Source: Escherichia phage CMSTMSU
Direction: 5' to 3' (one strand)
Length of the DNA stretch: 64,000 nt
Sequence record: MH494197.1
The position numbers and the translations under genes were made by a program. Below, in pieces: positions 46,320 to 64,000 of the stretch. Each line of letters begins with the position of its first letter. Position 1 is the stretch's first letter. A model generated the notes under the pieces. That model was not told where the DNA came from. It saw nothing but the letters and a program-made list of their open reading frames with translations, and did no database searches.

Positions 46320-46349
46320 ATTGTTACGAAGAACTTGTGTTCTTCATTA

Positions 46350-46592: not shown

Positions 46593-46609
46593 TAATTCCA
46601 GCGACCTTC

Positions 46610-46849
46610 TTTAAGACCTTCAACGAAACCAGTACAGCCACGGAACGTAAACATCGTTTACGAAAATTTGTGGAACCTGTCGTACTGGCTCACCACATAG
46701 TTCAGATAGTTTAGCACCATCAATACCAGCGGTAACATATCGATAAACTCCATATCAAATTTGTTATTTTCACATACTGCTTTAGCAGTGTCGCAGAATT
46801 TACAACCAGTAGTGCGACCATAAATTTTAACTTTCATTTCTTTTCCTTT
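46610..46849 (-). CDS. glutaredoxin/NrdH-like redoxin (frame-broken)
   Basis: MKVKIYGRTTGCKFCDTAKAV with C-x-x-C; C-terminal part in a shifted frame. Confidence 0.5.
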
Positions 46850-47046
46850 ATTTCGTTGAAACATCGTAACAGCCTTTATTATACTGTTACACATTCGTTC
46901 AGTCAAATACTTTTGACAATCTAGTACATCAATGTACATGAACTTATCCAATTCTGGGTGACTTCTACCATATCTGTTTGTGTAAGTACTTTTACACTCC
47001 AACTCTTCTGGTATAGGCTTATCTTTGGCTGTATAGAAAAATAAAA

Positions 47047-47288
47047 CTAAACGTTTCCCTTTCTATACGATACATCACCAAGAAACAGAAGATCATCTTC
47101 ATCGATTTCATATCCTGTCTCTTCGTAGCATTCACGTACAGCAGCCTCTTTAAATGTTTCTGTACCTTCAGTTTTACCTTTAGGTAAGTCCCAGTGATTC
47201 TGTCCGTGTTGTATGCCCGATAAGTATCTGACCATCACGATAAAATATTATACCACAGCTATAACGCATAATCTTATCTCTTTATCAT
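47047..47288 (-). CDS. NUDIX hydrolase (second copy; frameshift near N-terminus)
   Basis: Nudix box GKTEGTETFKEAAVRECYEETGYEI. Confidence 0.6.
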
Positions 47289-47344
47289 CAAGTGATGTTC
47301 AGATACTAGTAATTATATCAGAAGATGTTAACTTGTCCCAGCTT

Positions 47345-48578: not shown

Positions 48579-48636
48579 AATGCCTCCAATTAAATTAATC
48601 TATCACGTAGACGGTCGTAATATTTTGCATGTATAT

Positions 48637-49011
48637 CTAGTATACACTGAAATGACGGATAGTCAATACTAAATGTATCATCAATGAACATGTACTGATC
48701 AAGTGTTTCAGGACCATTATCATAAACTGGCAATGAACCTTCTTTTTTAACAGTGTGTTCCACATCAAATCACATGTAGTATCGAAAATTGCGTATGCTA
48801 ATTCTATCTTACTTTTTCTAAGTGTAATTAATAATTCATCATTCTCTACTAACGCGTTTCGTATTTTTACACGTACTGTACCCTGAAATTTATTAGTGGT
48901 TAGTACTCTATATTGATTATACGAAATCATGCCTCGTATTTCAGTACTGATTTCTTGTTCAGAAAAGTACCTTAATGTACTGTGGAAATTTGGTATTTTA
49001 CGAATGTCCAT
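48637..49011 (-). CDS. hypothetical protein, member of a tandem paralog set
   Basis: C-terminal frame DQYMFIDDTFSIDYPSF parallels YLQYQFIDDTFGFDFELYN of the 48998-49408 ORF. Confidence 0.35.
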   Translation of the reverse strand: MDIRKIPNFHSTLRYFSEQEISTEIRGMISYNQYRVLTTNKFQGTVRVKIRNALVENDELLITLRKSKIELAYAIFDTTCDLMWNTLLKKKVHCQFMIMVLKHLISTCSLMIHLVLTIRHFSVY

Positions 49012-49408
49012 TCAAATTCCTTTCGTATATATGGTATACGTTCATTATACTATTATATAGTTCAAAGTCAAATCCAAATGTGTCATCAATGAACTGATAT
49101 TGTAGATACTCTTCATATGAAGCATCAATTGGTAATGAGCCAGAACGAATATCATCTGATTTAAAATCGTCAATATATCTTAATGTTATTTCTTCATCAA
49201 CAGTGATATCTATCATCAACGTATCGTCACTGTACCAAAGGTTATGTATACGGATGTAAAGTTTCTTAGCACGATTAAAACTAGATACATTGGTATTGCG
49301 ATGGAGTTTATCTAAGTTGAAGTAAAACCGGCTCGTTTTACTTATGTTTTTCATATGTTCTGCAATCGAATCAATTATATAATCAATGTTGAATGTTCTC
49401 ATAAACAA
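48998..49408 (-). CDS. hypothetical protein, tandem paralog
   Basis: See 48637-49011. Confidence 0.35.
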   Translation of the reverse strand: MFMRTFNIDYIIDSIAEHMKNISKTSRFYFNLDKLHRNTNVSSFNRAKKLYIRIHNLWYSDDTLMIDITVDEEITLRYIDDFKSDDIRSGSLPIDASYEEYLQYQFIDDTFGFDFELYNSIMNVYHIYERNLNGHS

Positions 49409-49508
49409 ATCTCATAGCGGTTTGTGTTTGGATTGTAGCAATAGGTATCATTAATTTTAACACGGTTTAAGTGTTATTGTTGTTCCTACTTCAGTACTGG
49501 GTTCTGCA

Positions 49509-49706
49509 TCACAATAAATCATCACACCAACGCCACAGATTAAAGCTAAGATACAAATAATAGCACATATTATATATTCCATCACTCCCCATCAGCCAAT
49601 CAAAGAGACGTTCCAAGAAGCCATTAGGCTTGTATTCTGGTTCTTTGTTCACGTCGGTTTCTTGTTCATAAACACCCAAATCTTCTTCAAGTATAATTGT
49701 ATTCAT
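49509..49706 (-). CDS. small acidic protein sharing its 40-aa N-terminus with the ORF upstream of the CCA gene
   Basis: MNTIILEEDLGVYEQETDVNKEPEYKPNGFLERLFDWLMG vs [39 protein letters not shown]. Confidence 0.35.
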   Translation of the reverse strand: MNTIILEEDLGVYEQETDVNKEPEYKPNGFLERLFDWLMGSDGIYNMCYYLYLSFNLWRWCDDLL

Positions 49707-50089
49707 TATATATTATACTCTATTATACCATCATCACTTTCACCAGACAACCACTTAATGTAATTTACTTTGTAGAAATTAATCAATGCATAAGTGCTGT
49801 ACTCAATCAACAAGTGATCTCTCAAGAATTCGTCTTGAGCATATCCATCTTCATCCAAATCTGTTGGAATATCAGTTTCTTTGTCTTGAATGTGTAAAGT
49901 TATTGTGTCTTTTGTTATACAAATTTTTATATGATTACAAATAGTAATGATGATTATGCTATATGTTCTATTGAAATATATTGTGAAATCTTCATTAATA
50001 TTATATCTTCGACTTTCTTCATATTTCTGATATGGGTCGAAATGTGATAAATTAACTTTAATTAATGTATTTCTCAACTTACACCTCAA
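49706..50089 (-). CDS. hypothetical protein, 127 aa
   Basis: ORF only; possibly related to the 48637-49408 paralogs. Confidence 0.3.
   Translation of the reverse strand: MRCKLRNTLIKVNLSHFDPYQKYEESRRYNINEDFTIYFNRTYSIIIITICNHIKICITKDTITLHIQDKETDIPTDLDEDGYAQDEFLRDHLLIEYSTYALINFYKVNYIKWLSGESDDGIIEYNI
49722..49755 (-). promoter_or_regulatory. sigma70-like promoter TTGTCT-N17-TGGTATAAT
   Basis: Extended -10 TGGTATAAT on the minus strand immediately upstream of ATG 49706. Confidence 0.35.
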
Positions 50090-50602
50090 TCATATAAAGT
50101 AATTATACATTTTATTGTACAATATAAAAGGTCTTTCACATTATCATAAGTAATATCAGATATATCATGAATTAATGATAACTGAAAAATGAAGCTTCGT
50201 CTATCTCTACTGGGATTATAACATCATAGTCTTCGTCAATTTTATGGGTGTAGTATTTTATGTGATCAGCATTCAACACAAGGTTGTATTTTGTATCATC
50301 TTCAATTAATCCGACAAATTGAGATTTTTGATTAATAAAAATCCAATCCCAACACAACGGTTATCTGGATATGGATAGTACCATCTATTAATAACTAGGT
50401 GTTCAGGTAAGTCCATATCATGTGTTGATATTAAAGATTTTACAATTCCCATCCGGAATAATTCATAATTAAAACTCCATAAGAAAAGGGACAGAATAAT
50501 CTCTGTCCCTTTATTATATCTTACTCTTCGTCTTCAGTCAAGTCTTCTTGAACTGGATGTTCGGGTGGTTACGGCGATGCAATTTGATGCTTTTGTCTTT
50601 AC

Positions 50603-50851
50603 CTAAGACAGTTTCCATTTTTCAAATGAATCACCAATTGCTTTGTATAAATCTGCATCATCGGCGGTGACAATCTTACCACCTGATGTTAAAGTTACGG
50701 AATATTGATTCTTATGCTCTTTCTTCACATGAACACCGATATAAAGTACTGAAGAATCACTAAATTTCGTTAGTACATTTGCTTCTGCATGAATCGCGTC
50801 ATTGATTGCTGGAGTAATATCAACATTACCTTGGATAACTAAATCTAGCAT
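50603..50851 (-). CDS. hypothetical protein, 82 aa
   Basis: ORF only. Confidence 0.3.
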   Translation of the reverse strand: MLDLVIQGNVDITPAINDAIHAEANVLTKFSDSSVLYIGVHVKKEHKNQYSVTLTSGGKIVTADDADLYKAIGDSFEKWKLS

Positions 50852-50865
50852 AATTTACCTACCTT

Positions 50866-51741
50866 TTAGAGTGAGCTTAACAGCAAATCCGCTCTGTTTG
50901 TAACTTGGCGATACCACAAGGAATTCATGATTTCTTTCTTGAACTTCTTAGGGTTATCCATTTTAACACTTTTCCAAAGTTTGTCAAATGTTGCCAACTT
51001 ATCAACGCCCATTGTGTATGACATTTCAAACAGGATACGCTGCTGTTCTTTTGTCAGATTAACTGCATCTTTCTTCTGCATCAATAGTGTAAAGTCCTCG
51101 TAAGTCCTTTTCATATCTTGCATTAAAAGTTTGTTGGCCTGTGCTTTGGTAATCCCGTTTCTGTACTTCATTGCATCAGAATCTTTCTTACCCAAATAAT
51201 GCCCATAACCAATTGTATAATTACCTTTCATGTCCTTATAGGGATGAAATTTAGAATTGTGGAAAGGAACTCCAACTTTCCCACCAAGTAATTTACGTTT
51301 GTTCTTGGACTGAAATTCAATAGAACCTTCAGCTTCTTTGATGTGATCGACAATTTCTGGATCTTTATAATCAAACAGTACAGTCACATCTGGTAACAAT
51401 ACGTTCTTCAAATCCTCTTTGTTGGGATAAAGATACCTGAGAAGTATGAAGAGTTGCATTTAAGTTGATATTCTTCAACAAAATGACATAATCTTCAATC
51501 TGTACATTTTAGGTTTAAATTTCTGTGCAATAGAATAATAACTATCTCCGGTTGAACCGTATAATGTTTCTCGCTGCTTGGAACTGCCTTTGGTACTGAT
51601 ACCTTTAGTAGTTCCTGCTTTTGAATTTACAACTTGTGGTTTTAAATTATGCACCTGACTTTCGTCTAATGATGATGCACGATCACTTTGAGAAAAACCA
51701 TAAAATCCAATCGCAGCGAATAGGGCTGATGAAACTAACAC
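50866..51741 (-). CDS. GH24 (T4-lysozyme-like) muramidase with LysM-like motif and N-terminal hydrophobic segment (one frameshift)
   Basis: GNYTIGYGH and SLWYRQVTNRADLL match T4 lysozyme motifs; LysM-like YGSTGDSYYSIAQKF; N-terminal Gly/Ala-rich LVSSALFAAIGFYGF. Confidence 0.7.
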
Positions 51742-51951
51742 GCCTATGGCAATTTTAGTTTTCAGTGCTTTTTCGCTTTTTCAAAACGCCTCCTTTGTTG
51801 GTTGTTAACAATGAGCAATCACAAAGAGGGCAAAGAGGCCATTTGCAAAAGCCTCATTGGACTTTCTACAGTACTCATTTGTTCTTTGGAACATTTAAGT
51901 AGTATAGCATACTTTTTAGTTATATCAAGACCTATTTACCAAATAACCACA

Positions 51952-52358
51952 TTAATCGTAGTATGTTCTACCAATGGTGATGTGATATTTGAAATATTTA
52001 GATGCCAAACCCAGTTCATTACGAATATGTGCAATGAAATCATCTTCAAACTCTATGATAAAGAATGACCGGTTTCTTATTGTCTTTTACTTCTTCGATG
52101 AAAGGATCGAACTTAATCTTAACTTTCATACCATCGTACTTTTCCAGTACTCTGGATTTGGTGGCACTTCACCACGAACGATACTGACATGTGCTCCCCA
52201 TTGTGGGTCTTTAATATCAATATGTAAGTCAGTTCTGATGAAGTACTGGTAGTATCGAACCAACTGTAATGGAAGTTGCAGTACTAACCAGAAGTCCTTC
52301 TTCTTTTCATAGTGCCACGATCTGGATCATACACCAGAGTTCCTTCCATTTCAATCAT
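51952..52358 (-). CDS. 2H phosphoesterase-like protein, about 135 aa (Acb1/LigT-like candidate; frame-broken; below track cutoff)
   Basis: Two H-x-S/T-x motifs, AHVSIV and YHITIG, about 68 residues apart, assembled from three frames on the minus strand. Confidence 0.4.
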
Positions 52359-52572
52359 ATTTTACCTATAAATTTACATATATATTTTTATTTTCAATAC
52401 GAACATAAGTTTCTAAAACATCTTTCGGAATTTTATTACTTGTTTTGTACCATGTAGTATTATCTACTAAAACAAAAGTTTCACCTTCAGTTTCACCAAA
52501 TGTACTTAGTGCATAAATGAAGTAGTTTGGTGATGCACTACAATAAACATCAGCATTAATTTCAATCATATT

Positions 52573-52704
52573 TTACACCACAATAAAGCTTAATACAACG
52601 AGTGTAATAAACACACCCACAATGGCGGTCATTTCAGGGTTAGCATCGTATGTATAACGGATGCACTTTAGAAAATCTTTACCAAACTTTTTTAGTCCAT
52701 TCAT
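52573..52704 (-). CDS. small membrane protein, 43 aa (below track cutoff)
   Basis: MNGLKKFGKDFLKCIRYTYDANPEMTAIVGVFITLVVLSFIVV with RBS AAAGGAAAA. Confidence 0.3.
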   Translation of the reverse strand: MNGLKKFGKDFLKCIRYTYDANPEMTAIVGVFITLVVLSFIVV

Positions 52705-53456
52705 ATATTTTCCTTTCATTTCTTGTGTAAAGGGTCGGCACTTTCATAATAGATTGTATCATTGTTTCGCTCAATAGTAAAACTCTTTTGACACAACTCT
52801 TCAGCTAAACCCTTAGCATAGTTTAATACATCTCGGTTGAGATATACTTCTTCTTTTGGGAAGCGTGGGTACTGAATAATACGAGCACACATTCCACTTT
52901 CAAGACCACCCGTGTAGATGTATTCACACGGAATCAATTGTACACAAAATCCAAGCTTGAATGCAAACTTTCGTGTGTACTCTCTTGCTGTTTGATATCA
53001 CCAGCAATATGAATATTCCAGTACTGTGTTTCAACTGTACCTTTGTCGATGTATTTCATACTCATCTCCAATTATAGCATAAAAATCCTACTTGCCCAAA
53101 TCTTCTATAATTCTTTTATGATATCATTGTTTTCCAGACATAAAGTACTGAAATTTCTACCTGTTTTTCATTGAGTTCATTAATCTCAAGCATAAGATAA
53201 CCATAAGTGATATCTTGAACCCTACTTCGTTTTACCCTTGAGTACAGTCTGATGGGTACAGATACGCGAGTATTCAAAAGAATTCTGATAAATCATAACG
53301 ATATACGGTATTCATTCTTGTAACGTTTACGACTGTACGATTCTAAACACTGTGGAAACGTCTATCAAACATACTACTTCTTAGTTGAAGTATGATTGGA
53401 TCTAACTTATGCGAGAAATACTTTTGATTATTTTATTAAATCTTGTTACATGTCGT

Positions 53457-53948
53457 TTACGCCATCTCATAATCAAACCTTAAAAATATAATAGGAAAGT
53501 ATTTTGTTTCCGAATCTGAAATACTGTTACAGTAATCTTTCAATTCATCATGGATAACATTCAAATGAATAGTAGGATAGTTCATAGGTTTCTGTACTGG
53601 GCCAGTGGCATATACGCAATCTGTTCTATCCCAACTTACATATTGGGTTGGGTAATTATCTTTAGTACGTTCTTCAATAATAATATTATATTCTGGTGTA
53701 TTGAATACATACATATCACATTGTGAAATGTACTGAACATTAAAATCACCATCAGTTAGATGGATCATGTTCCCATCGCAATATAAGCATGATGGTTCAG
53801 TGTATCCTAAAATTGAAGATAAAGTTCTGAAGTTTGCTCGGACCCAAATATACCAAATTCGTGTGTAAACAAATATCAATGAAACGTTTGAAGACTTCAG
53901 TTTCGTTATGCATATAGATACCTTAAAAGACCCACATAGTGAGGTCAA
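53457..53948 (-). CDS. hypothetical protein (probably frame-broken at N-terminus)
   Basis: ORF only. Confidence 0.3.
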   Translation of the reverse strand: MTSLCGSFKVSICITKLKSSNVSLIFVYTRIWYIWVRANFRTLSSILGYTEPSCLYCDGNMIHLTDGDFNVQYISQCDMYVFNTPEYNIIIEERTKDNYPTQYVSWDRTDCVYATGPVQKPMNYPTIHLNVIHDELKDYCNSISDSETKYFPIIFLRFDYEMA

Positions 53949-53965
53949 ACACTTTTAAACGTTAT

Positions 53966-54185
53966 CATCATCCAAAGCTTCACGGTAAACATAATAAACA
54001 TGCGTACCTAGAAGAACAATGAGTACAATGAATACTAACCAGAATGGTACAAAATGCAGTACAAGTGCAAATGCCATTACGGTAATAACCATCACTACTG
54101 AACTAAAAATAAGACTAGTCGCTTTTTAAATCCAGATAGTACATCATTCAAAACGCGTTTCATAAATGAATCAACCATTTTATTC
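53966..54185 (-). CDS. small two-TM membrane protein, about 73 aa (frame-broken)
   Basis: MVDSFMKRVLNDVLSGFKK then VVMVITVMAFALVLHFVPFWLVFIVLIVLLG; RBS AGGA overlapping the tdk 3' end. Confidence 0.3.
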
Positions 54186-54750
54186 CTCATATAATCCATA
54201 TAGCAAGTTCTGCATAGACTCTTGTATGATTCATCACCACCAATAAAGACTTTATCAGTACTTTCAACTATACGGGCATTCATAGTGGCTTCTTTGCCAC
54301 ACTTCTGATTCTCACACACGTTCTTAAGTTCATGTATGTCATCAGCTATTTCGAACAGTCTTTGTGAACCTTCAAAAGATTGATTCAAAATCTGTTCGTA
54401 TTCCATAACAGGAAACATCAACACCATAATTATCTGCTATATCAGCTAAATGGTCAATTTGTTCTCTGTTTAAAATTGACATTCATCAACATAGATACTG
54501 TTAATGTCAACGTCATTTTTGAGTGTTTCTTTAACTTTAAGAAGAACACTAATGTCATTTTTGGAATTACTTCAGCCACAGCTTCGATGCCAATTCTTGA
54601 AGTAATCTTTCCTGTTCCATAACGATCATCAAGTGCACTGGTTAAGTAAATTACCTTCATTCCATTTTTCTTATGGTTATATGCTTTTTGTAAAAGATGA
54701 GTACTTTTACCACTAGACATACTACCATAGTAATATACTAATTTACCCAT
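54095..54750 (-). CDS. tdk: thymidine kinase (frame-broken; 3' limit uncertain)
   Basis: P-loop YYYGSMSSGKST, DDRYGTGKITSRIG, C-terminal Cys cluster CGKEA...C..C; RBS AAGGA before ATG 54750. Confidence 0.8.
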
Positions 54751-55189
54751 TTTAATCCTTAAGTACGTGTGCTTACATTTTAATCTATTACCATAGGATG
54801 AAATTGGGATATTGAACATTTCTATTTTACCCTCTTTTAAAAGACGTAAAATATCTGGATCGTTTTGGTTTGTACACAATGAAGACCATTGACTTGAATT
54901 TCTAAACCATTCTTCAGAAATTCATAAATCTTCTGTCTACGCTTCCCACCGAAACTTTCATTTCGGATAACATCTCTTAGGTCTTTATATTCTTGTTTTA
55001 ATTTCCTGTCAAAAGTGTTCCATCTTTCTTTCTGATTTCTTCAATACACTTATATTGAGTTTGTCCTCTAAGAGCCATATTTGACCTCGTTGGGATATTT
55101 CTTCATTAACTCATGTAAACGTTGAATTTCCTGATTTTTCTTATGTTCTTCATCATACTTCTTAGAAAGATTCTTTCTTGTATTTGTTT

Positions 55190-55546
55190 CTAATAATCTA
55201 AAATTAGTACAGAATCTATCATTTTTAGCAACGTTCTTACGTAACGCATCAAAACAGTACTGAAATAGTTATCCAATGGAAAAGAAGTATCAGTGTAATT
55301 ATAAAAATCCATTACATTTGTCATGTTCACATGTTCAATTACCGCACCATTGTGCGTTACAATAAACATTATATCACCATAATTACAATTTGCATCAGTA
55401 CGGTACAGATATAAATGATCACGTAAATAATCTTTTAATTTATGTTCAATACCACTTTGTTCAGTACTTTGAAATACCAAAACTTCACCATAGATTGTAT
55501 TACCTTCATAATCATTTGGTTCGCGGATAATTGTAAGGTTATACAT
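55190..55546 (-). CDS. hypothetical protein
   Basis: ORF only. Confidence 0.35.
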   Translation of the reverse strand: MYNLTIIREPNDYEGNTIYGEVLVFQSTEQSGIEHKLKDYLRDHLYLYRTDANCNYGDIMFIVTHNGAVIEHVNMTNVMDFYNYTDTSFPLDNYFSTVLMRYVRTLLKMIDSVLILDY

Positions 55547-55554
55547 ATAACTCC

Positions 55555-55845
55555 TTATACCGGAGATACGGTACTCAGCATTAGTAGAGCAGTGTTTTCA
55601 TCAATTTCATGTTGATTGTCGCACACTAGTGTTTCCAATAGGTCTGGATTGTAATAATAATGTTCATAATCTGTATCATTTGGAATATGGTGATAGGTGA
55701 ATACAATGTCAAATACATCATCATCATTTTCACTTTTGAAACGCTTTAATTCTTCTACACTTTCAACAAAACCATACTCTTCAAAAGCAGTAGTACCATC
55801 AGTAAGTTTCATCCATGCACTTGCGACAATTTTCATAAATTTCAA
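55555..55845 (-). CDS. hypothetical acidic protein
   Basis: ORF only. Confidence 0.35.
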   Translation of the reverse strand: MKFMKIVASAWMKLTDGTTAFEEYGFVESVEELKRFKSENDDDVFDIVFTYHHIPNDTDYEHYYYNPDLLETLVCDNQHEIDENTALLMLSTVSPV

Positions 55846-55904
55846 ATCCTTATTCTTTTGTAATGTTTAGTTTAGAAACGAAATGGTTTTTGCTTCTTCA
55901 AATG

Positions 55905-56432
55905 TCATTGAAGTATATACTGGTTCCAATTATCGTCAAGATCTGTAAGTACTTTAACTTCCATTACATCTTCAGGTGTGTAGAATTGCCATGTGTTATG
56001 ATCTGGTTCATAATTAGGGTCTAGTGTGAAAACTGTTCCATTCTGACCATAAACTTGTCCATCCTCTAATAGCTCACGAAATAAGTCTTCCCCAGTTGTT
56101 GGGTCTTCGTATGCATTATAAAAGGAAAACAACATTCTCAACATCAGTTCGGTAGTACCATCGTCTTCATCATATTCAACCAAACGGTCCTGATGAAATA
56201 CTAGGTCAATAGCACCAATGCGAGGTTTATTATGTGGAGTTTTGATTTCTTGCTGGGAATTGTAATCCATACGTTCAGTACTGATGAATACACCACTTGG
56301 TGTGATTTCAATACCAGATACATTTTCTGGTGAATAATAAGAGTCACACATATCATCAATATGCATGTGCTCATGATACACTTCCATTTCAGGGTTCTGC
56401 ATCAACAGTGCTGCTAGGTCTTTTGCTTTCAA
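55905..56432 (-). CDS. hypothetical protein, paralog of 57204-57782
   Basis: Shared N-terminus MKAKDLAALLMQNPEMEVYH vs MKSHDLAKLLLSQPNLDIYH and shared ITPSGVF / YTPEDV motifs. Confidence 0.4.
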   Translation of the reverse strand: MKAKDLAALLMQNPEMEVYHEHMHIDDMCDSYYSPENVSGIEITPSGVFISTERMDYNSQQEIKTPHNKPRIGAIDLVFHQDRLVEYDEDDGTTELMLRMLFSFYNAYEDPTTGEDLFRELLEDGQVYGQNGTVFTLDPNYEPDHNTWQFYTPEDVMEVKVLTDLDDNWNQYILQ

Positions 56433-57021
56433 TCTTCAATCTCCATAGAGTCATCACTTTCGTAATCATCACTAGTGTACTTAGTTTTACCTCAATACCA
56501 TTCTCATGAAGGTATGTGATAAAGCCATTACCATGAACGAATTGATTATAATATGTATTTTCTTCTACATGTGAGTCATAATCATCTTCGTAATATGTGG
56601 GCATTGTAACATCATGACCAGCACTTTGCAAGTACTGGAACAATTCTTTCAGAACTACTTCGATATCACCTTCTTCTGTGCCATAACAATATGCAGGTTC
56701 ACCGTGAGTGAATTTGAATCCTTTACAGGAAACTGTATAAATGTCACTCATGTTCATACCACAATCATCACATTCATGTATAGAACAATGCTGGTGGAAT
56801 TTAATCTTTTGATTTGCATTTAGAAAATCCTGTAAAGATGTAGTAGACATTGGACTATCAGCACCATCATACCACAGTGATGTATATGGCTGAACTGAAC
56901 TAATATCAATACAGAATCCTTCACGCTCACATTTTCGAGCGAATTCTTCAGTAGTTAGTTTGTTACCAAAAGAAATCTCAAATTCATAACTAGACATATC
57001 AATATCAGTACTGTAAATCAA
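56389..57021 (-). CDS. hypothetical Cys/His-rich protein
   Basis: ORF; cluster HQHCSIHECDDCG. Confidence 0.35.
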   Translation of the reverse strand: MIYSTDIDMSSYEFEISFGNKLTTEEFARKCEREGFCIDISSVQPYTSLWYDGADSPMSTTSLQDFLNANQKIKFHQHCSIHECDDCGMNMSDIYTVSCKGFKFTHGEPAYCYGTEEGDIEVVLKELFQYLQSAGHDVTMPTYYEDDYDSHVEENTYYNQFVHGNGFITYLHENGIEVKLSTLVMITKVMTLWRLKIESKRPSSTVDAEP

Positions 57022-57203
57022 TGTACCATCATATGTAATATGGAGTTTAGAATCTGCGTCAAAAGACGATCTGAAATAGCTTCATAATCATCTTCAGGAA
57101 CTGCTTCAATAAGACGGGCCATTAGTCCAGATGTTACGCGTAATCACTCATTTTTAATCCTTTTTTTATTTTTCAAGTTTATCAATAATAGAAGGTGATA
57201 CTT

Positions 57204-57782
57204 TTACATTGAATTCAGAATCAGGAAAATCTTTAGAAAATGAATCAATTTGTTCTTGTGAAAGTTCTTCTTTTGTGGAAATAACATTTTAACTAAATTT
57301 TTACCACATTCAATTGCTTCATCATACGACATAGTTTCCCATGTTCCATGCCAAGTACTAGGTTCATATTCTGTCAGTACAGAAATGAAATCAATATCAT
57401 CGGGTGTATACCAAACAGCATTTTGATTCCCTGATGGTGCTGATTGATTTTTACCTAATAAAACAATTGGCTTTTCATAAGGAATGTTAAATATCAACCC
57501 AGATTCTAAGTTAAGAACAGTTTGAATAGATGAACCCTCCAATTTTGGAGTAATAGTACCATCCTTAAAGAAAATTTGTACATGACCCAAGAGTGGGGTT
57601 TCATATGGTGTAAGTACATTTTCAGAAACTGATGTGGGTTTTGCCGTTGTGAAAATACCAGATGGGGTGACCATTAATTTATTATCAAAATTCTGATAAT
57701 GCAATTCACTATCCACATCATAATGATAAATGTCTAGATTTGGTTGAGATAGTAGTAATTTTGCTAAATCATGAGATTTCAT
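57204..57782 (-). CDS. hypothetical protein, paralog of 55905-56432
   Basis: RBS GGAGA before internal ATG (MKSHDLAKLL). Confidence 0.4.
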   Translation of the reverse strand: MKSHDLAKLLLSQPNLDIYHYDVDSELHYQNFDNKLMVTPSGIFTTAKPTSVSENVLTPYETPLLGHVQIFFKDGTITPKLEGSSIQTVLNLESGLIFNIPYEKPIVLLGKNQSAPSGNQNAVWYTPDDIDFISVLTEYEPSTWHGTWETMSYDEAIECGKNLVKMLFPQKKNFHKNKLIHFLKIFLILNSM

Positions 57783-57810
57783 TTTATTTCTCCAAAGAAA
57801 AGGAGAGTCA

Positions 57811-57832
57811 CAATGACTCTCCATATATTTTA
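57811..57832 (-). terminator. intrinsic terminator (perfect 9-bp stem)
   Basis: GGAGAGTCAttgTGACTCTCC followed on the minus strand by TTTTCTTT. Confidence 0.5.
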
Positions 57833-57837
57833 TTGTA

Positions 57838-58268
57838 AAACTTTGAGTTTGTAAAGCATTCCTTCACAAAAACTCATAATGTCTTCTAGCGTGTTAGTAC
57901 TACCATAGTCTTCAGCCTCTTCTAGCATAGCATGAATGGCTTTACATTGACTAACATATTCTTCAAGAATTGGTACACAATCCTCGATAGGGTAAAACGA
58001 TAACTGTTACCAGTACCTACCTGCAATGCCCGCGAGTGTTCATAATACCCTCTACAAATGCATCAACGTACTCAGGTAACTCTTTGTATAGTTCATCCAA
58101 TTGTAGGTGCTTCGTGTAGAAATGGCTCTGTAAATGCCAGTTGTGAGCAGCAGCACTTAAAAATAAACTATTCTCAATAAATGTAAGTAGTACTTCATCA
58201 TAAGAACTATCTTCTTCAGTATCTCCGATAAAGTCCATTACATGTCGTAAATCATTAATATTTTCCAT
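57838..58268 (-). CDS. Dps/ferritin-like four-helix-bundle protein (one frameshift)
   Basis: AAAHNWHLQSHFYTKHLQLDELYKELPEYVDAFVEGI resembles the Dps helix pair; RBS AAGGAGAG. Confidence 0.4.
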
Positions 58269-58444
58269 AAATCTCTCCTTAGAGTTATTCTATGGTATTT
58301 AGTTAATAATAAAGGTAACTTCAGGATTCATTTCTGAAACTGCATTTCTCTTACTTCTATTCCATAGTACTCTATTGTTATATAATGAAGAATCACAAAT
58401 TATAAGTAAGCAATTCCTTAATCTACTTACAGTACTTTGATTAC

Positions 58445-58726
58445 TTAAATCAGTTTCTGTAACAAAAATACATTATCAGGAACTTCTACAGGAATTGATT
58501 TATCAAAGAAGAAAACTACAATAGGTCTGTTTGTATGAACTAAATTAATAAAGTCTAAAATACTGTTATAAAATTCAGTTCCTTTGTTTAAACTTAATGG
58601 ATCTTTGATTCTCTTCAAATAGGTCTGAACCAAATTATGATCGCTTTTGATTTGATACTCAAAATATTCTTTGAATAACATTTGTGTTAATTCAGATGTA
58701 TTGGATATTTTCGTTGTGTTACTCAT
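58445..58726 (-). CDS. hypothetical protein, 93 aa
   Basis: ORF only. Confidence 0.3.
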   Translation of the reverse strand: MSNTTKISNTSELTQMLFKEYFEYQIKSDHNLVQTYLKRIKDPLSLNKGTEFYNSILDFINLVHTNRPIVVFFFDKSIPVEVPDNVFLLQKLI

Positions 58727-58918
58727 TCACTTCGTTCTCTCGTAACTCAAGAAGTCACTACGTTTACTTCGTAAACTAGTTCCTTCTGAAAATGATAATG
58801 TACTTTAAAAGCTTGACGGATTTGTTGAGGACTATTTCATCCCCGAGGAAGAAGGTAATAAAAAGAGACAATTAAGTCTCTCTGACGATGATGGCATCGG
58901 ATATTATCGAATTGCGAA

Positions 58919-59097
58919 TTTCTCAAATTTTGGACGGATCTTTCCTGTACCAAAATTTAGAGAAAAGCGGGTTGCTCGGTTTCTCTCTATCGCAGTCATA
59001 TGCAACGGTCGCTGGTCTTTTCATCAACAGCACTCAGTACTAAACTCTATTCGATCAAAGTAGTACCTGTTCTCAAATTTTGGACGCAACTTTCTTG
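58919..59097. repeat. two copies of a ~28-nt direct repeat (TTCTCAAATTTTGGACG...) about 150 bp apart in a relatively GC-rich noncoding stretch
   Basis: 58919-58946 atttctcaaattttggacggatctttcctg and 59070-59097 gttctcaaattttggacgcaactttcttg; each contains its own hairpin. Confidence 0.5.
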
Positions 59098-59295
59098 TAA
59101 AATCGCGTCCACAATCCTGAACTCCTTAGCAAATTCGTAAGGTGCGAACCTTATACATCTATCTAGGAACTCTCTGTGTGCTTGGAGTTCTTTATACAGC
59201 CGTGTCGCCGTGATTCGTGGTCTTATCTCGTGTTTGTTTGATTGCCAGTACTCTAACAGGTTTCTTTTGCTGTTCGCTACAACGGTAAAGCTCAT
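59047..59295 (-). CDS. hypothetical basic protein, 82 aa
   Basis: ORF with RBS AAGGA; preceded at about 59374-59405 by CGGGACA-N14-TGATATAAT. Confidence 0.35.
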   Translation of the reverse strand: MSFTVVANSKRNLLEYWQSNKHEIRPRITATRLYKELQAHREFLDRCIRFAPYEFAKEFRIVDAILQESCVQNLRTGTTLIE

Positions 59296-59565
59296 CTATC
59301 CTTTACATTTTCAAGAGAAGTAGGTTCTCATTATCCATTTTTCAATGTCCGTTGTCATTTTACAATATACATTATATCACTAGGATGTATTATGTCCCGT
59401 TACATGTATACCTTTTTCAAATCCTTGGAACAACGGTCAAAATTGTGTTGATGAATTCGACATCCTCTTTGATATTGGAGTCTATAGCATCATTCTCGTT
59501 TCTTGTTGTGTTCCTGTATTTGTGTTCAGGGTGATTGTATACCACCTTGACTACATTATTTAGGT

Positions 59566-59811
59566 CTACAAAAATGACGATTTTTGCGTATAGGAAGCCT
59601 GAAGCTTGATGAGTTTACCATCGTTTTGTAGATTAGTCTTGTGAATTAGTTCTTCAATACCATCTAAATGGCTATAGCTATCCTGTTCTTTGACGAATGT
59701 AACAGTTACCAGTACTGACTTCTCATCTCCAAAGTCAGAGATATTTTTAACAGCACTGATGATTTCTAAGTTTGAAAAATCTAATTCTTTTAGCATTACA
59801 AATATTTCCAC
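59566..59811 (-). CDS. hypothetical protein
   Basis: ORF only. Confidence 0.3.
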   Translation of the reverse strand: MEIFVMLKELDFSNLEIISAVKNISDFGDEKSVLVTVTFVKEQDSYSHLDGIEELIHKTNLQNDGKLIKLQASYTQKSSFL

Positions 59812-60152
59812 AAAGTTCGATAAGTGATAATTTCTTCTCTGGTAACAGAAACTTCATAGCACTTAACACCATCAGTTTCATTTCTGAATGGTTCTGCTGG
59901 TCTATCTTCTGTTAAACCTCGTTCATACGTACAATGATAATATTTGTTCGTGTTCATGTCAAGAAAAACTAGATCAAATTCTTCTGTCCATCGTCTATGC
60001 CCTTTACTTTCATTACTAATGATTTTGTACTTAACATCGGGATTGAATGATTCAGTACTGTCATCCCATGTACCATAGTCAGTATATTCATCATCTTCAT
60101 CTAACTCTGCCAGATGCCACATTAACTGTGGTAAAAAGATTTTAGATTTCAT
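59796..60152 (-). CDS. hypothetical acidic protein
   Basis: ORF only. Confidence 0.35.
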   Translation of the reverse strand: MKSKIFLPQLMWHLAELDEDDEYTDYGTWDDSTESFNPDVKYKIISNESKGHRRWTEEFDLVFLDMNTNKYYHCTYERGLTEDRPAEPFRNETDGVKCYEVSVTREEIITYRTLWKYL

Positions 60153-60402
60153 TTATTTTCTCCAAAAATAGGGACTCGATTTCTCAAGTCCCTATCATAA
60201 CATATTAATTGTGATTATTCAATTTCTTTTGTTCTTTTTAGAGCTTTCATATGTCAAAATCACGAACATGCCATATATGGTCGGTTTCCCATAGTTCTGT
60301 ACGTAAACGGCGTTCTTCCAATTCTTCTGGAGTAGGAATTTTAGATTTCTTCTTATCTTTATTGAAAAATCATTCATATGTTCTTCCAGTAGATTTCTAC
60401 CC

Positions 60403-60807
60403 TTAACTTTTTCGGAATTCATCTACTGATTCAGTTTTATTAGAACGAAGACTGTTACAACGTGAACACATGGTGTTGTAATTTGACTCTAAATCAGGTC
60501 CACCCTTAGATGCTAGTTGGTTATGATCTACTGTCATCAGTACTTCATATAGACCACAAACTGCATAGACATTTAAGTGAGGTTTACCATATACCGGATC
60601 AGTGCTATGTGAACGCTCAATGCGAACTTCAGTGGCTTCAATACCACACGCAACGCATTTACAATTCTTAACGAATGTAAGTACTTTTTGTGGGAAGTAT
60701 CGGAAAGTAACACCGTTATATGTATAGCGTTTCATCTGTGTACTTCTTTGATTTAACTCATCAAGAAGTGATAGTTTGGCAACATAGTAGACCTGATATT
60801 TTGACAT
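60403..60807 (-). CDS. HNH endonuclease
   Basis: HNH core TVDHNQLASKGGPDLESNYNTMCSRCNSLR plus upstream Cys pair CKCVAC. Confidence 0.7.
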   Translation of the reverse strand: MSKYQVYYVAKLSLLDELNQRSTQMKRYTYNGVTFRYFPQKVLTFVKNCKCVACGIEATEVRIERSHSTDPVYGKPHLNVYAVCGLYEVLMTVDHNQLASKGGPDLESNYNTMCSRCNSLRSNKTESVDEFRKS

Positions 60808-60919
60808 TTTTAATCCTCGGATTTAATTTTAACCTTAACATCTTGATTTTGTAAATCACGAATAGTTTTAATTAATGCATCATGTTTTAGTGCACAGTCA
60901 TTGTACATTGCATCCCATT

Positions 60920-61123
60920 TTACGAGTACTGCAAGAATTTCAGCACCATCATATCCTCTGAACCCGTTTTATCGACCATGATTTTACTTGGTAGTGGTGT
61001 ATTTTCGTCACAACGTTCAAGTAAGATTTCTTGTTCTACAATTGGTTTAGGTTGATACTTAATTTCTTCAGCACAACCACTAATTAATAGAAAAGAAATT
61101 GCAAATACTAAAGCGTATTTCAT
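60920..61123 (-). CDS. small lipoprotein (o-spanin-like candidate)
   Basis: Signal peptide plus lipobox MKYALVFAISFLLISGC; Pro-containing mature part; start ATG overlaps upstream stop (ATGA). Confidence 0.5.
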   Translation of the reverse strand: MKYALVFAISFLLISGCAEEIKYQPKPIVEQEILLERCDENTPLPSKIMVDKTGSEDMMVLKFLQYS

Positions 61124-61492
61124 TTGAATTTATTCCTCGCTGCAAGGGAATTCTGTTTAAGTTCATTCAGAAGTTTAACGCCATCTTCATCTAGACATAC
61201 GTTTTTGTAAACTTCTCTTTCTACTATAATAGGCACTTGTGTCTCGATAACTTTAGCATTATCTTGCATTATCTTTTTGGTTTCTATATAGTTTTTGCAT
61301 TTTCTTGCTGCATCTTAGCGAGTGCAGAATCAACTTTCTTTTCTATTTTTGGTCAATACTTTCTTTATAACCAGTATAATAAGTATTTGCTGACCATCCA
61401 CCGTAAACACAACCTGCCATTACTCCTACTACCAAAATTGGTTTCCAATATGGTATTAAAACTTTTGAAACAATAATTTCTAGTACACTCAT
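61121..61492 (-). CDS. type II membrane protein with N-terminal TM and charged helical domain (i-spanin-like candidate; frame-broken)
   Basis: MSVLEIIVSKVLIPYWKPILVVGVMAGCVYGGW then Lys/Glu/Gln-rich segment; RBS AGGAGA. Confidence 0.4.
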
Positions 61493-61717
61493 AATAACAT
61501 CTCCTATAGTTGGTAATATTATTTAGAGTGTACTATATTATATGTTTACAACATTTTTGAATATGATCTACGAGTTTATACAGTTTAGTGTTTTCATTCT
61601 CGTATTCCAAATCAACTTCAACTTTGAATTCTTCTTCAAGTTCCATGATCATTTCAATCCAGTCAAGCCAATCGAATTTAAATTTTTCCACGACTTCACA
61701 TTTAGTAAGATGGAAGT

Positions 61718-63159
61718 TCATTGATACATCTTTTTCGGATGCATTTTGTCGCGACTTGTAATGAATTTGACAATTGCTTTTTCAACGTCAGTTAGTTCAC
61801 GTGTGCGATATTCTGGTTCAAGATACCATTCGCCATTATTGATAGCTTCCAACGAAAGTCTAAGTTCATGCATTAGTTTATAACGATCAGTACTTTTATG
61901 GATGCGGTTAACTTCGCGATTCAGTACACGTAGTGCGTCTTTGATTTGTTCGTTTAGCATAACAATCCTCTTATTTTTTCTGTACCATTGCATTTCACGG
62001 ATATCTAATAGTACCTTCGTAGCCAACTTTATGTTTGGTCGCTTCGGTAGATGGGTCTTATGATACGCCACATTTCGGATGTAGCCTTTTCGTTGAAATA
62101 ATCCATAACTTCTTGATACAACCACTTCCCGTTACGAATGTCCATCAACATAGCAGCATCCGGTCGGTGAACTTGGATGATGCCAGTTTCAAGTGCTTCC
62201 TGTGCTGTATTCAGCAGCCTGATTATGCATAGCATGTTTGCAGTCATAACCGTGGTGTGATTCAAGAATAGCACGTTTGGCATTACGATTCTGCTTCCAT
62301 TTGTGATAACTCTTACGGTTCTCACTATTTTCTTTGTATTCCTTTTCATTGAATTTTACAATGAGTTCAGGACGAACTTTCAATTCTTCTGTAGTACGTT
62401 CTTTGTTGAAGTAACGTAGTGAACCATCAGCATTCACTGTACTTTCATTCGGGTTGATAATTACCCCAAAGATGTTTTCACCGTAATGGATTAGTTCATA
62501 TCCAGAATTGTAATTCAATAAATTGAAATCACGATCTAATACTTTATCAGTACTATAATTATGTACTAAACGTACAAAATGATATTGTTTCAATGCTTGT
62601 GTTGAAACTTAATAAGTATCACGCATGTATTTTTCAAAATCAATTTTTGTAGCATTGAATGGGTGAAGATTGGATTTATTCAAACGTCAGAATATCATTC
62701 GTCAACTGGATGTTCTTCTAAAATTTCATTTAGTTTACGTTCAGCAATTCGTTCCTTATCGAGCCAGCCGTGGTGATTAGACATACGCTTAACCTGATTG
62801 TATGCATATCCACTGTATGAGTGTGCAATCTTTGAACTCAATAATTGCTGATTGAATGAGCGTAGATAGTCATAGATTTCAGTACTTTCTACGATGTGTT
62901 CCGGTTTAACCCATAGTGATTCAAGAATGTTTGGGTTAGCTTCAGTATGAACTTAAGTACTGATTGATTTCATAAAATTTAGTATCTTCTTCAGAAGTAT
63001 CTGAAACTTCCTTAACATTAAAAAAGGAGTTAGGATATATTCTTTGTTTGCAAGGAAGATACCACGATAATCTGTATCACTTTCTGGTGTGCTTGTGCCA
63101 TACGCCTGTGAACCAGCTAAGTGTTTCACAATAGTTTGTTCTAGAAAATTGTTTTTCAT
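61718..63159 (-). CDS. nucleotidyltransferase-fold (Pol-beta-like) protein, about 480 aa (heavily frame-broken)
   Basis: N-terminal LAGSQAYGTSTPESDTDYRGIF fits the G[GS]x9-13 D-h-[DE] motif; ORFs 62953-63159, 62189-62593, 62029-62349, 61718-62125 on the same strand. Confidence 0.35.
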
Positions 63160-63586
63160 AAGTAAATCGTTAACTCCTTTAGAAAACCATTATAGTATCG
63201 TTTAAAATCATGATCCAGTACTTGATAGTCATTGTAACTAAATCCAAGATTGATGATGGTATCTTCTTGGAAGAATTTCTCTTCATTCATTACTTCGATG
63301 GGTTCGTATTCTTTCCCACCTTTATATACTTTGTAAAGAACATACCATCATTGTTAATTTCAACGTACATGAAATTATTTTCTGGATCTCGTGGACACAC
63401 AATGTTTAGTGAACTTGTCCCATTGTTATTATATTCGTATGAAATAATATCAAAAGAATCGATACCATAACATTTGGACTTTTCTTTGTCACCAAGACTT
63501 TTCTATCTGTACTCATATTGCGTATAGTACTGTAGATATCATCGATTGTAGTCATAATTAACCACCGTACTTTGACTTATATGTTT

Positions 63587-63979
63587 CTAAAGATAAAGAA
63601 ATGCGATTTTGCTTTTAATTCTTTCATCAATATCCTTTGAATTCTTAACACTTCTGTATACATCAGCTAATAAATTATAATCTTCTTTATTTGAGCTATG
63701 TAATGCCCAACCTATATCTGTTTTGATTCGAACATATGCTTTATTTGATGTGAAATAAAAATTGAATCCGTTAGACCCATCAAAAATATCATAAGTATTT
63801 ACCCAATCTCCATAAGGAAAACTCATTGGTACTGACTCATAATCAATGGTGATATCCGATAAATTTTTAGAACAGTACTTTACAAAGTGGTAAACAATCG
63901 GATCACATTTTGATAATTCGTATTTGTATTCAATGATAGTTTTTCTATTAGTATCATTGATGGCATATTCTTTTATCAA
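63587..63979 (-). CDS. hypothetical protein, 130 aa
   Basis: ORF only. Confidence 0.35.
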   Translation of the reverse strand: MIKEYAINDTNRKTIIEYKYELSKCDPIVYHFVKYCSKNLSDITIDYESVPMSFPYGDWVNTYDIFDGSNGFNFYFTSNKAYVRIKTDIGWALHSSNKEDYNLLADVYRSVKNSKDIDERIKSKIAFLYL

Positions 63980-64000
63980 TGGACTTTTTGATGATAAGAG

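What the first reader, a model, noticed from the sequence alone, without database searches (positions are those of the whole stretch)
60920..61492. Spanin-like pair (TM plus helical protein, then overlapping lipoprotein) located about 10 kb from the lysozyme
A type II membrane protein with a charged helical periplasmic domain ends in TGA overlapping the ATG of a small lipobox protein (LISGC). This is the architecture of separate i-spanin/o-spanin pairs. The only recognisable muralytic enzyme (50866-51741, with LysM and a hydrophobic N-terminal segment) lies far away, so lysis functions appear dispersed. The lipoprotein could alternatively be a superinfection-exclusion factor.
Basis: partly seen in the sequence, partly recalled or inferred. 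Interest (0 to 1): 0.5.

Follow-up and report, generated by a model that had tools for sequence, protein, structure and literature searches.

The report
Known jumbo-phage spanin pair, frameshifted
This is the two-gene "spanin" device that a giant E. coli phage very probably uses to break the host's outer membrane at the end of infection. The same gene pair was already catalogued in closely related phages in 2018, and its broken reading frames in this window are sequencing errors.

Summary
The window is an Asteriusvirus-type jumbo coliphage, 99% identical to Ecwhy_1, vB_Ec-M-J and fEgEco12. On the minus strand, 61492-61120 encodes a 124-aa membrane-anchored helical protein. 61123-60810 encodes a 104-aa lipoprotein with lipobox LISGC. 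The two genes are joined by an ATGA overlap.

In the window both genes are broken by single-base homopolymer deletions. These are assembly artefacts. All indels against the nearest relative are deletions in the window, nearly all runs of 6 or more bases are shortened, every CCWGG site is corrupted, and tail sheath and tail tube genes are broken as well.

The spanin reading is supported. The first protein matches PHROG 1152 (Rz-like spanin, E = 1e-26). The pair stays adjacent across at least five genera. Distant homologues of both proteins sit directly after lysozyme or CHAP endolysin genes in small phages and prophages.

The 121Q and PBECO4 orthologues (78% and 71% identity) are listed as a "separated" spanin pair in Kongari et al. 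2018. GenBank already labels identical copies "Rz-like spanin". The distance from the LysM-lysozyme endolysin matches gene positions in relatives whose homologous endolysin is published, and it parallels T4. Function has not been tested for this family. The finding is ordinary and of low interest.

The parts
61120..61492 (-). i-spanin gene. It is 124 aa when two 1-nt homopolymer deletions near 61346 and 61292 are restored. It has an N-terminal TM segment and a helical periplasmic domain with the conserved motif VPxIVEREVYKNVCLDEDG.
   Evidence: frames and correction; PHROG 1152, E = 1.3e-26; hydropathy; AF2 helices 16-85 and 103-123; conservation
61391..61459 (-). Predicted transmembrane segment of the i-spanin, about residues 12-34 (LIPYWKPILVVGVMAGCVYGGWS).
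   Evidence: Kyte-Doolittle peaks at residues 6-24 and 19-33; Kongari supplement: 121Q orthologue has a 33-residue N-terminal/TMD part and a 91-residue periplasmic part
61120..61123 (-). ATGA. The o-spanin start codon overlaps the i-spanin stop codon by 4 nt. This counts as 'separated' architecture under Kongari's criteria.
   Evidence: -4 in 9 of 12 relatives; 121Q and PBECO4 recorded as sep, -4
60810..61123 (-). o-spanin gene. It is 104 aa when the 1-nt deletion near 60967 is restored. It has a signal peptide with lipobox and an 87-88 aa mature lipoprotein with two further invariant Cys (C38, C77).
   Evidence: PHROG 2425, E = 2e-22; invariant C17, C38, C77, DTPxP, W70, Y74; Pfam LysC sub-threshold in 9 of 12
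61073..61087 (-). Lipobox L-I-S-G-C (residues 13-17). Cys17 is the predicted acylation site. Ala at +2 implies sorting to the outer membrane.
   Evidence: (+2 is A/N/S/G in all 12 relatives, never D)
61501..61526 (-). Upstream signals. The motif CTAAATAAT (61526-61518) resembles the T4 late promoter TATAAATA. The Shine-Dalgarno AGGAG lies at 61505-61501.
   Evidence: [CT]TAAATA lies 25-35 nt before the ATG in all 12 phages and follows a terminator hairpin in 8; (CBB paper: ATAAATA late motif and a gp55-like sigma factor). Promoter function is inferred, not shown.
50866..51790 (-). Probable endolysin, also frameshifted in the window. It has an N-terminal TM/SAR-like segment, a LysM domain and a GH24 Phage_lysozyme domain. 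It lies about 9 kb from the spanins.
   Evidence: (CBB_187 described as the endolysin, with 121Q gp532, RaK2 gp506 and GAP32 gp180 named as homologues)

Best explanation
The locus is the two-component spanin of an Asteriusvirus-type jumbo coliphage.

The upstream gene makes a type II inner-membrane protein (i-spanin). It has an N-terminal TM anchor, a long periplasmic helix, a conserved hinge/contact motif (VPxIVEREVYKNVCLDEDG) and a second helix.

The downstream gene is translationally coupled through ATGA. It makes a lipoprotein that is acylated at Cys17 and sorted by Lol to the outer membrane (o-spanin).

By analogy with lambda Rz/Rz1 and T4 PseT.3/PseT.2, the two proteins would join through their C-terminal parts into a complex spanning the periplasm. 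Disulfides involving the conserved cysteines (i: C100; o: C38, C77) would probably stabilise it. Once the separately encoded SAR-like LysM-lysozyme has removed the peptidoglycan mesh, the complex would fuse or disrupt the inner and outer membranes to complete lysis.

Shown here: the sequence features, family membership, conserved pairing and the lysis-cassette context of homologues. Inferred: the topology, the complex, the disulfides, late expression and the membrane-fusion step.

The broken frames in the window are nanopore-type assembly errors, not biology.
For: Identity of the window: 99% to jumbo coliphages, where the same genes are intact and annotated 'Rz-like spanin' twice over.

Family hits: PHROG 1152 at E = 1.3e-26 and PHROG 2425 at E = 2e-22. 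Pfam LysC (Rz1-like) is hit below threshold in 9 of 12 members.

Anatomy: one TM segment; a signal peptide with a lipobox; Ala at +2. AF2 gives a helical i-spanin with a break at the conserved motif.

Conservation across Asteriusvirus, Alcyoneusvirus, Mimasvirus, Eneladusvirus and Munch-like phages: the lipobox Cys and two more Cys are invariant in the o-spanin. The i-spanin Cys is present in 11 of 12. The gap between the genes ranges from -4 to +11 nt.

Co-occurrence: 10 of 12 additional loci carrying an i-spanin homologue have an o-spanin HMM hit next to it. The other two (L028, L030) have a lipobox ORF there, and L030's shows the same two-Cys pattern.

Context of distant homologues: holin (PF16082), then Phage_lysozyme, then the i-spanin homologue with an overlapped o-spanin ORF in fEg-Aba01. 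Phage_lysozyme lies directly upstream in L028 and CHAP in L030.

Literature: 121Q_511/512 and the PBECO4 pair are listed as separated i-/o-spanins. T4's unlinked separated pair complements lambda Rz/Rz1.

Artefact evidence: against L003, 109 indels in 18 kb, all deletions in the window. 26 of 28 runs of 6 or more bases are shortened. 9 of 9 CCWGG sites are corrupted, and the whole window contains no CCWGG. Tail sheath, tail tube, neck and terminase genes are also frameshifted.
Against: - No member of this particular family has been tested for lysis.
- There is no detectable sequence homology to the experimentally studied lambda Rz/Rz1 (no Pfam hit at E <= 1). Against T4 PseT.3/PseT.2, only the signal peptide aligns.
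- The AF2 model of the o-spanin is poor (pLDDT 50), so its fold and its contact with the i-spanin are unknown.
- No holin has been identified.
- GenBank records of CBB and XbC2 call the homologues 'structural protein', and fEgEco12 calls them 'FtsB' and 'lytic conversion lipoprotein'.
- The late-promoter assignment rests on a short AT-rich motif. The sigma-70 promoter and terminator scan was no better than chance.
Confidence: 0.87

Rival explanations
1. The lipoprotein is a superinfection-exclusion or lytic-conversion factor of the T5 Llp or Cor type. It would block a receptor from the periplasmic side, and the upstream membrane protein would be unrelated to lysis.
For: The fEgEco12 record labels the identical protein 'lytic conversion lipoprotein'. 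The protein is a small outer-membrane lipoprotein encoded far from the endolysin.
Against: PHROG and Pfam scans at E <= 1 hit no family annotated as exclusion or Llp/Cor. They hit only PHROG 2425 and sub-threshold LysC. The lipoprotein is always coupled to a PHROG 1152 i-spanin, including inside holin-endolysin cassettes of small phages and prophages. A late-type motif lies upstream rather than an early promoter. T5 Llp itself was not compared directly.
Confidence: 0.04
2. The genes are truly frameshifted in this phage. It would then lack working spanins and rely on another route, such as a disruptin-like or unimolecular system, for outer-membrane disruption.
For: As written, the window contains three frame-breaking deletions in the pair.
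Against: The deletions follow a systematic error pattern: only deletions, 91-100% of runs of 6 or more bases shortened, and all Dcm CCWGG sites corrupted. They hit essential tail sheath, tail tube, neck and terminase genes at about the same rate. Close relatives at 98-99% identity have intact genes.
Confidence: 0.03
3. The pair is a virion-associated or other envelope-interacting membrane complex, for example one acting at entry, rather than a lysis device.
For: The CBB_164/165 and XbC2_158 homologues are annotated 'structural protein'. The pair lies beside tail-fibre and structural genes in 121Q.
Against: CBB's own virion mass-spectrometry table does not list CBB_164 or CBB_165, so the label appears to be transferred. 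A TM anchor plus a Lol-sorted lipoprotein is not a known virion architecture. Homologues sit in lysis cassettes.
Confidence: 0.04

Closest known systems
PBECO4/121Q spanin pair (PBI_121Q_511 i-spanin, PBI_121Q_512 o-spanin) in the census of Kongari et al. 2018 (PMC6139136)
   Same: These are orthologues at 78% (i) and 71% (o) identity. Lengths are the same or nearly so (124 aa; 102 vs 104 aa). They share the -4 ATGA junction, the AGGAG and GAGGA ribosome-binding sites, the xISGC lipobox (LISGC here, IISGC in 121Q) and the cysteine positions. GAP32 is placed in the same o-spanin family.
   Different: They come from a different species-level lineage of Asteriusvirus. The window copy carries sequencing frameshifts. 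Neither pair has been tested experimentally.
T4 PseT.3 / PseT.2 (separated two-component spanin)
   Same: It has the same 'separated' architecture with a 4-nt overlap. It is unlinked to the endolysin and holin genes. Its i-spanin has two periplasmic helices. Its o-spanin is comparatively long, with a C-terminal helix and two conserved periplasmic Cys.
   Different: There is no detectable sequence homology. hhalign aligns only the signal peptide/lipobox for the o-spanin (probability 25%) and nothing for the i-spanin. T4 PseT.3 has no periplasmic Cys, whereas this i-spanin has a nearly invariant one (C100).
Lambda Rz / Rz1
   Same: It has the same functional design: a type II inner-membrane protein with helical periplasmic domains separated by a linker, an outer-membrane lipoprotein, and periplasmic cysteines (established knowledge).
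   Different: In lambda, Rz1 is embedded within Rz, is about 40 aa when mature, and is proline-rich and unstructured. Here the genes are separate and the mature o-spanin is 87-88 aa with predicted helices. There is no Pfam Rz or Rz1 hit.
P2 LysB / LysC (Pfam PF23793, LysC)
   Same: Nine of 12 o-spanin homologues give weak LysC hits over the lipobox and the following ~25 residues (best E = 9e-5).
   Different: The window-type protein is below the gathering score (17.3 vs 27 bits). P2's genes overlap extensively. No match to a P2 LysB-type family appeared in the Pfam scans of the i-spanin.
Overlapped spanin pairs of small Acinetobacter phages (fEg-Aba01; Kongari's curators noted that the 121Q i-spanin 'blasts to ... 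presley')
   Same: The i-spanin is 37% identical and shares the VERxVYKxxCxDDDG motif. The o-spanin is 24% identical and has the same two-Cys pattern.
   Different: There the o-spanin gene overlaps the i-spanin gene by about 100 nt. The pair sits directly after holin and lysozyme genes, and the o-spanin ORF is unannotated in MT344103.

Membership tests
Two-component spanin (functional class, criteria of Kongari et al. 2018) | i-spanin: a single N-terminal TMD (type II) followed by a periplasmic domain | tested here: met
   Hydropathy shows one N-terminal peak. AF2 gives a helix over residues 16-85. The orthologue is recorded with a 33-residue TMD part and a 91-residue periplasmic part. TMHMM and SignalP were not available.
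Two-component spanin (functional class, criteria of Kongari et al. 2018) | o-spanin: SPase II lipobox with Cys, and no inner-membrane retention signal (no Asp at +2) | tested here: met
   MKYALVFAISFLLISG|C fits the PROSITE-style rule. The Cys is invariant, and +2 is A/N/S/G in all 12 relatives.
Two-component spanin (functional class, criteria of Kongari et al. 2018) | The two genes are adjacent in embedded, overlapped or separated architecture | tested here: met
   A 4-nt ATGA overlap counts as 'separated'. Spacing ranges from -4 to +11 nt in 12 relatives.
Two-component spanin (functional class, criteria of Kongari et al. 2018) | Periplasmic cysteine(s) available for intermolecular disulfides | tested here: met
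   The o-spanin has invariant C38 and C77. The i-spanin C100 is present in 11 of 12 and is invariant in alignment A5. Actual disulfide formation was not tested.
Two-component spanin (functional class, criteria of Kongari et al. 2018) | Required for outer-membrane disruption; complements lambda Rz/Rz1 amber mutants | not testable with these tools
   This needs an experiment. No report for this family appeared in the four literature searches run, none of which was aimed at functional tests of the family.
PHROG 1152 'Rz-like spanin' | Full-length HMM match | tested here: met
   E = 1.3e-26, residues 9-122 against profile positions 2-123 of 127. The distant homologue in L018 also matches (E = 8.6e-12).
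PBECO4/121Q/GAP32 spanin families of Kongari et al. 2018 | Sequence similarity to the listed members, with the same architecture | tested here: met
   78% and 71% identity to the 121Q pair. The sequences and the -4 junction are printed in the paper's supplement.
Lambda Rz / Rz1 (Pfam Rz and Rz1 families) | Match to the Pfam models | tested here: not met
   No Rz or Rz1 family was reported at E <= 1 for either protein or at E <= 0.1 for any of the 12 homologues.
P2 LysC (PF23793) | Score at or above the gathering threshold (27 bits) | tested here: not met
   17.3 bits, E = 0.0045, covering only residues 12-43. Nine of 12 homologues hit weakly, best E = 9.1e-5. A distant relationship is possible but unproven.
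T4 PseT.3 / PseT.2 | Detectable homology of the periplasmic domains | tested here: not met
   hhalign gave probability 0.3% for the i-spanin and 24.6% for the o-spanin, the latter limited to the signal peptide.
Superinfection-exclusion lipoproteins (T5 Llp, Cor) | Sequence match to such a family, or stand-alone early or moron-type gene context | tested here: not met
   No such family appeared in PHROG or Pfam hits at E <= 1. The gene is always coupled to an i-spanin gene. T5 Llp was not compared directly, and the exclusion phenotype cannot be tested here.

The most novel reading that the evidence does not exclude
This spanin lineage may use a different covalent arrangement from the two studied systems. 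It has one nearly invariant Cys in the i-spanin contact motif (NVCLDEDG) and two invariant Cys in the o-spanin. This could mean a heterotypic i-o disulfide, or an isomerisation relay, that locks the complex. In lambda the links are homotypic, and in T4 they occur only between o-spanins. Combined with its own late-type promoter and a SAR-like LysM endolysin with no recognised holin, jumbo-phage lysis could be timed differently from the lambda and T4 paradigms.
Probability: 0.15. Interest if true: 0.3.

Novelty: already known. Interest (0 to 1): 0.1.

Why it matters
The finding matters little beyond annotation. It confirms that RaK2-like jumbo phages carry a conventional two-component spanin unlinked to their endolysin, as T4 does. 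It also links PHROG 2425, currently labelled 'unknown function', to o-spanins.

On the practical side, several GenBank records mislabel or leave these genes unlabelled ('FtsB', 'lytic conversion lipoprotein', 'structural protein', 'hypothetical'). In addition, any gene-level reading of this window must first correct systematic homopolymer and CCWGG deletions.

Tried and rejected
- AF2 of the o-spanin from a 7-sequence alignment gave pLDDT 50. That is too poor for a fold search, so none was run.
- PDB profile searches with both family alignments found nothing meaningful; the best E-values were 0.09 and 0.3.
- NCBIfam returned no hit for either protein.
- Profile comparison with T4 PseT.3/PseT.2 showed no homology.
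- The sigma-70 promoter and intrinsic-terminator scan of 59500-62500 found 14 promoter-like sites against 12.3 expected, and 0 terminators. It was not informative.
- The exact motif CTAAATAAT occurs 5 times in the window, all on the minus strand, against 1.4 expected. Two of 100 shuffles reached 5, so this is only suggestive.
- The search for homologous proteins returned mostly close relatives because of its word index. The three distant i-spanin hits and the viral-contig scan supplied the useful outgroups.
- The 'structural protein' label of CBB_164/165 was checked against the CBB paper and is not supported by its mass-spectrometry table.
- The T4 rows of the Kongari supplement are cut in the stored files, so the T4 sequences were taken from NC_000866.

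Full report
**What is in the sequence**

The finding lies on the minus strand. Six-frame reading of 61492-60920 shows no intact first gene.
- An ORF at 61492-61343 (MSVLEIIVSKVLIPYWKPILVVGVMAGCVYGGW...DQK*) carries the hydrophobic segment.
- The text continues in another frame (...KIEKKVDSALAKMQQENAKTI*).
- It then continues in the third frame as the ORF at 61269-61120 (...VPIIVEREVYKNVCLDEDGVKLLNELKQNSLAARNKFK*).
- The lipoprotein ORF starts at 61123 with ATG inside ATGA (MKYALVFAISFLLISGC...). It appears to stop at 60920.
- A 32-aa fragment ORF at 60908-60810 continues it in another frame.

**Origin of the window and nature of the frameshifts**

The region is 99% identical to Escherichia jumbo phages Ecwhy_1, vB_Ec-M-J and WPEC3, and 98.6% identical to fEgEco12. 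Asteriusvirus is the genus given for vB_Ec-M-J. In those records the genes are intact at 375 nt (124 aa) and 315 nt (104 aa).

Alignment to OQ718158 shows that the window lacks one T in three T-runs, at about 61346, 61292 and 60967. This is not specific to the locus.
- Against fEgEco12 there are 109 indels in 18 kb, all of them deletions in the window.
- Runs of 5 bases are shortened in 41% of cases, runs of 6 in 91%, and runs of 7 or more in 100%.
- All 9 CCWGG sites in the aligned part are corrupted, and the whole 64-kb window contains no CCWGG.
- Tail sheath, tail tube, neck and small terminase genes carry frameshifting deletions too.

Homopolymer compression plus errors at Dcm sites is the known signature of unpolished nanopore assemblies (my own knowledge). 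The frameshifts are therefore artefacts.

**Anatomy after correction**

The 124-aa protein has one N-terminal hydrophobic segment, about residues 12-34. An AF2 model from 18 homologues (mean pLDDT 70) gives a continuous helix over residues 16-85, a poorly modelled break at 86-102, and a second helix at 103-123. The break coincides with the most conserved stretch of the family, VPxIVEREVYKNVCLDEDG. That stretch is almost unchanged even in homologues with about 35% overall identity.

The 104-aa protein has a signal peptide and a lipobox (LISG|C, Cys17) that fits the PROSITE-style rule, with Ala at +2. The mature part is 87-88 aa and charged, and it has two further Cys. Its AF2 model is poor (pLDDT 50), showing only helices at 60-74 and 81-91.

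**Family evidence**

The i-spanin candidate matches PHROG 1152 'Rz-like spanin' over its full length (E = 1.3e-26). The lipoprotein matches PHROG 2425, labelled 'unknown function' (E = 2e-22). Pfam gives only a sub-threshold LysC (Rz1-like) hit, which recurs in 9 of 12 homologues. No Rz or Rz1 Pfam family, NCBIfam family or PDB relative was found.

**Conservation**

tblastn finds both proteins in 70-75 phage records. Almost all are RaK2-like jumbo phages of Escherichia, Klebsiella, Salmonella, Erwinia, Yersinia, Serratia, Cronobacter, Pectobacterium and Xanthomonas.

In 12 representatives from five or more genera the two genes are always adjacent, with spacing from -4 to +11 nt.
- In the o-spanin alignment, C17 (lipobox), C38, C77, the T42, P43 and P45 positions (with D41 nearly invariant, the DTPxP motif), W70 and Y74 are invariant. 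The +2 residue is never Asp.
- The i-spanin Cys100 is present in 11 of 12; Munch has Ser.
- Upstream, a [CT]TAAATA motif lies 25-35 nt before the ATG in all 12. It follows a terminator-like hairpin in eight.

The CBB paper reports an ATAAATA motif before structural genes and a gp55-like sigma factor, and it interprets the motif as a T4-like late promoter. Late expression of the pair is therefore plausible but inferred.

**Context of distant homologues (the key functional argument)**

- Acinetobacter phage fEg-Aba01 (34 kb) has this order: holin (PF16082), then Phage_lysozyme (PF00959), then an i-spanin homologue (37% identity, E = 4e-14). That gene contains an unannotated overlapped lipoprotein ORF (24% identity, E = 9e-9, same two-Cys pattern). 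attP and an integrase follow.
- In two Logan contigs, PHROG 1152 and PHROG 2425 proteins are again adjacent.
- Nine IMG/VR loci were found with the i-spanin profile. Seven of them (and three of the other three loci, 10 of 12 in all) have an o-spanin HMM hit at the 3' end of the i-spanin gene. The other two IMG/VR loci (L028, L030) have a lipobox ORF there, and L030's shows the same Cys pattern.
- Directly upstream lie a Phage_lysozyme in L028 and a CHAP-domain protein in L030.

So the pair accompanies three different muralytic enzyme genes in compact lysis cassettes.

**What is already known**

Kongari et al. 2018 list (PBECO_4, 121Q) as a 'separated' i-spanin family and (PBECO_4, 121Q, GAP32) as an o-spanin family. 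Their supplement prints PBI_121Q_511 and 512, which are the orthologues (78% and 71% identity), with the -4 junction. GenBank and RefSeq label the homologues as follows:
- 'Rz-like spanin' in vB_Ec-M-J (both genes);
- 'i-spanin' and 'o-spanin' in K64-1;
- 'i-spannin' and 'o-spannin' in Munch.

The endolysin with an N-terminal TM segment, LysM and a lysozyme domain is described for CBB_187, with 121Q gp532, RaK2 gp506 and GAP32 gp180 named as homologues. The window's copy at about 50866-51790 has the same domains. T4's spanins are likewise unlinked to the endolysin gene e and the holin gene t, and they complement lambda Rz/Rz1. The 'dispersed lysis genes' are thus real but expected.

**Relation to studied spanins**

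The design matches lambda Rz/Rz1 and, more closely, T4 PseT.3/PseT.2. Shared points with T4 are the separated genes, the two-helix i-spanin, and the long o-spanin with a C-terminal helix and two Cys. Profile comparison nevertheless finds no homology to T4 beyond the signal peptide. The locus works like an Rz/Rz1 system and belongs to the PBECO4/121Q family. It is not a member of the lambda, P2 or T4 sequence families.

**Rivals**

- A superinfection-exclusion lipoprotein is supported only by an automatic label in fEgEco12. Obligatory pairing with the i-spanin and the lysis-cassette contexts contradict it.
- Genuine pseudogenes are contradicted by the window-wide error pattern.
- A virion role ('structural protein' in CBB and XbC2) is not backed by CBB's own mass-spectrometry table.

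**Verdict**

No experiment exists for this family, so the mechanism rests on analogy.

Noticed in passing
whole window (quantified on 1-64000 against PP777464): There is a systematic error signature. Against fEgEco12 over window 46089-64000, all 109 indels are deletions in the window, at about 6 per kb. Homopolymers of 6 or more bases are shortened in 26 of 28 cases. All CCWGG (Dcm) sites are corrupted, and none is left in the 64 kb. Almost every gene, including tail sheath and tail tube, is frameshifted. This is typical of an unpolished nanopore assembly.
   Followed up: yes
window ~61546-61960 (-), and L001 4152-4568: The acyl-carrier-protein-like gene conserved just upstream of the spanins has lost the phosphopantetheine-attachment serine in some lineages. 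In place of DSLD, the window type and 121Q have DWLD, JNE01 has DNCD, and K64-1 has DTWD. Munch, GAP32, CBB, XbC2, fHe-Yen9-04 and BF keep DSLD. These copies probably cannot carry acyl groups. Their function is unknown.
   Followed up: partly
window 61518-61526 (-); same position in L004-L014: A conserved [CT]TAAATA motif, similar to the T4 late promoter TATAAATA, lies 25-35 nt upstream of the i-spanin start in all 12 jumbo phages. It is preceded by a GC-rich hairpin and T-run in eight of them. This suggests the spanin pair is its own late transcription unit.
   Followed up: partly
L015 (MT344103, Acinetobacter phage fEg-Aba01) 2739-2984 (+): An unannotated o-spanin ORF (MKCKRSWSVLFISLAVLMMTGC...) overlaps the 3' end of fEgAba01_23, which is itself annotated only as hypothetical. 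The pair completes the holin-lysozyme cassette.
   Followed up: yes
window ~60200-60807 (-): An HNH endonuclease gene abuts the o-spanin stop codon in Asteriusvirus, Alcyoneusvirus, Munch and Hallingskeid. It is absent at that position in GAP32, CBB, XbC2 and BF. This is consistent with a mobile homing-endonuclease insertion next to the spanins.
   Followed up: no
L003 11860-12084 (fEgEco12 g268; corresponds to window ~54000-54250, -): A 74-aa protein with a very hydrophobic double-TM-like core (SLIFSSVVMVITVMAFALVLHFVPFWLVFIVLIVLLG) lies about 2 kb from the endolysin gene. It is a possible holin or pinholin candidate for the SAR-like endolysin. No holin is annotated in these phages.
   Followed up: no
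L008 1109-1788 (KU574722 CBB_164/165), L009 1088-1456, L002/L003 (PP777464 g251/g252): Public annotation of this pair is inconsistent. Labels include 'structural protein' (CBB, XbC2), 'cell division protein FtsB' with 'lytic conversion lipoprotein' (fEgEco12), and 'hypothetical' in many records. The 2020 Eneladusvirus paper (PMC7760394) states that no i-spanin could be found, although a homologue sits directly upstream of their o-spanin.
   Followed up: partly
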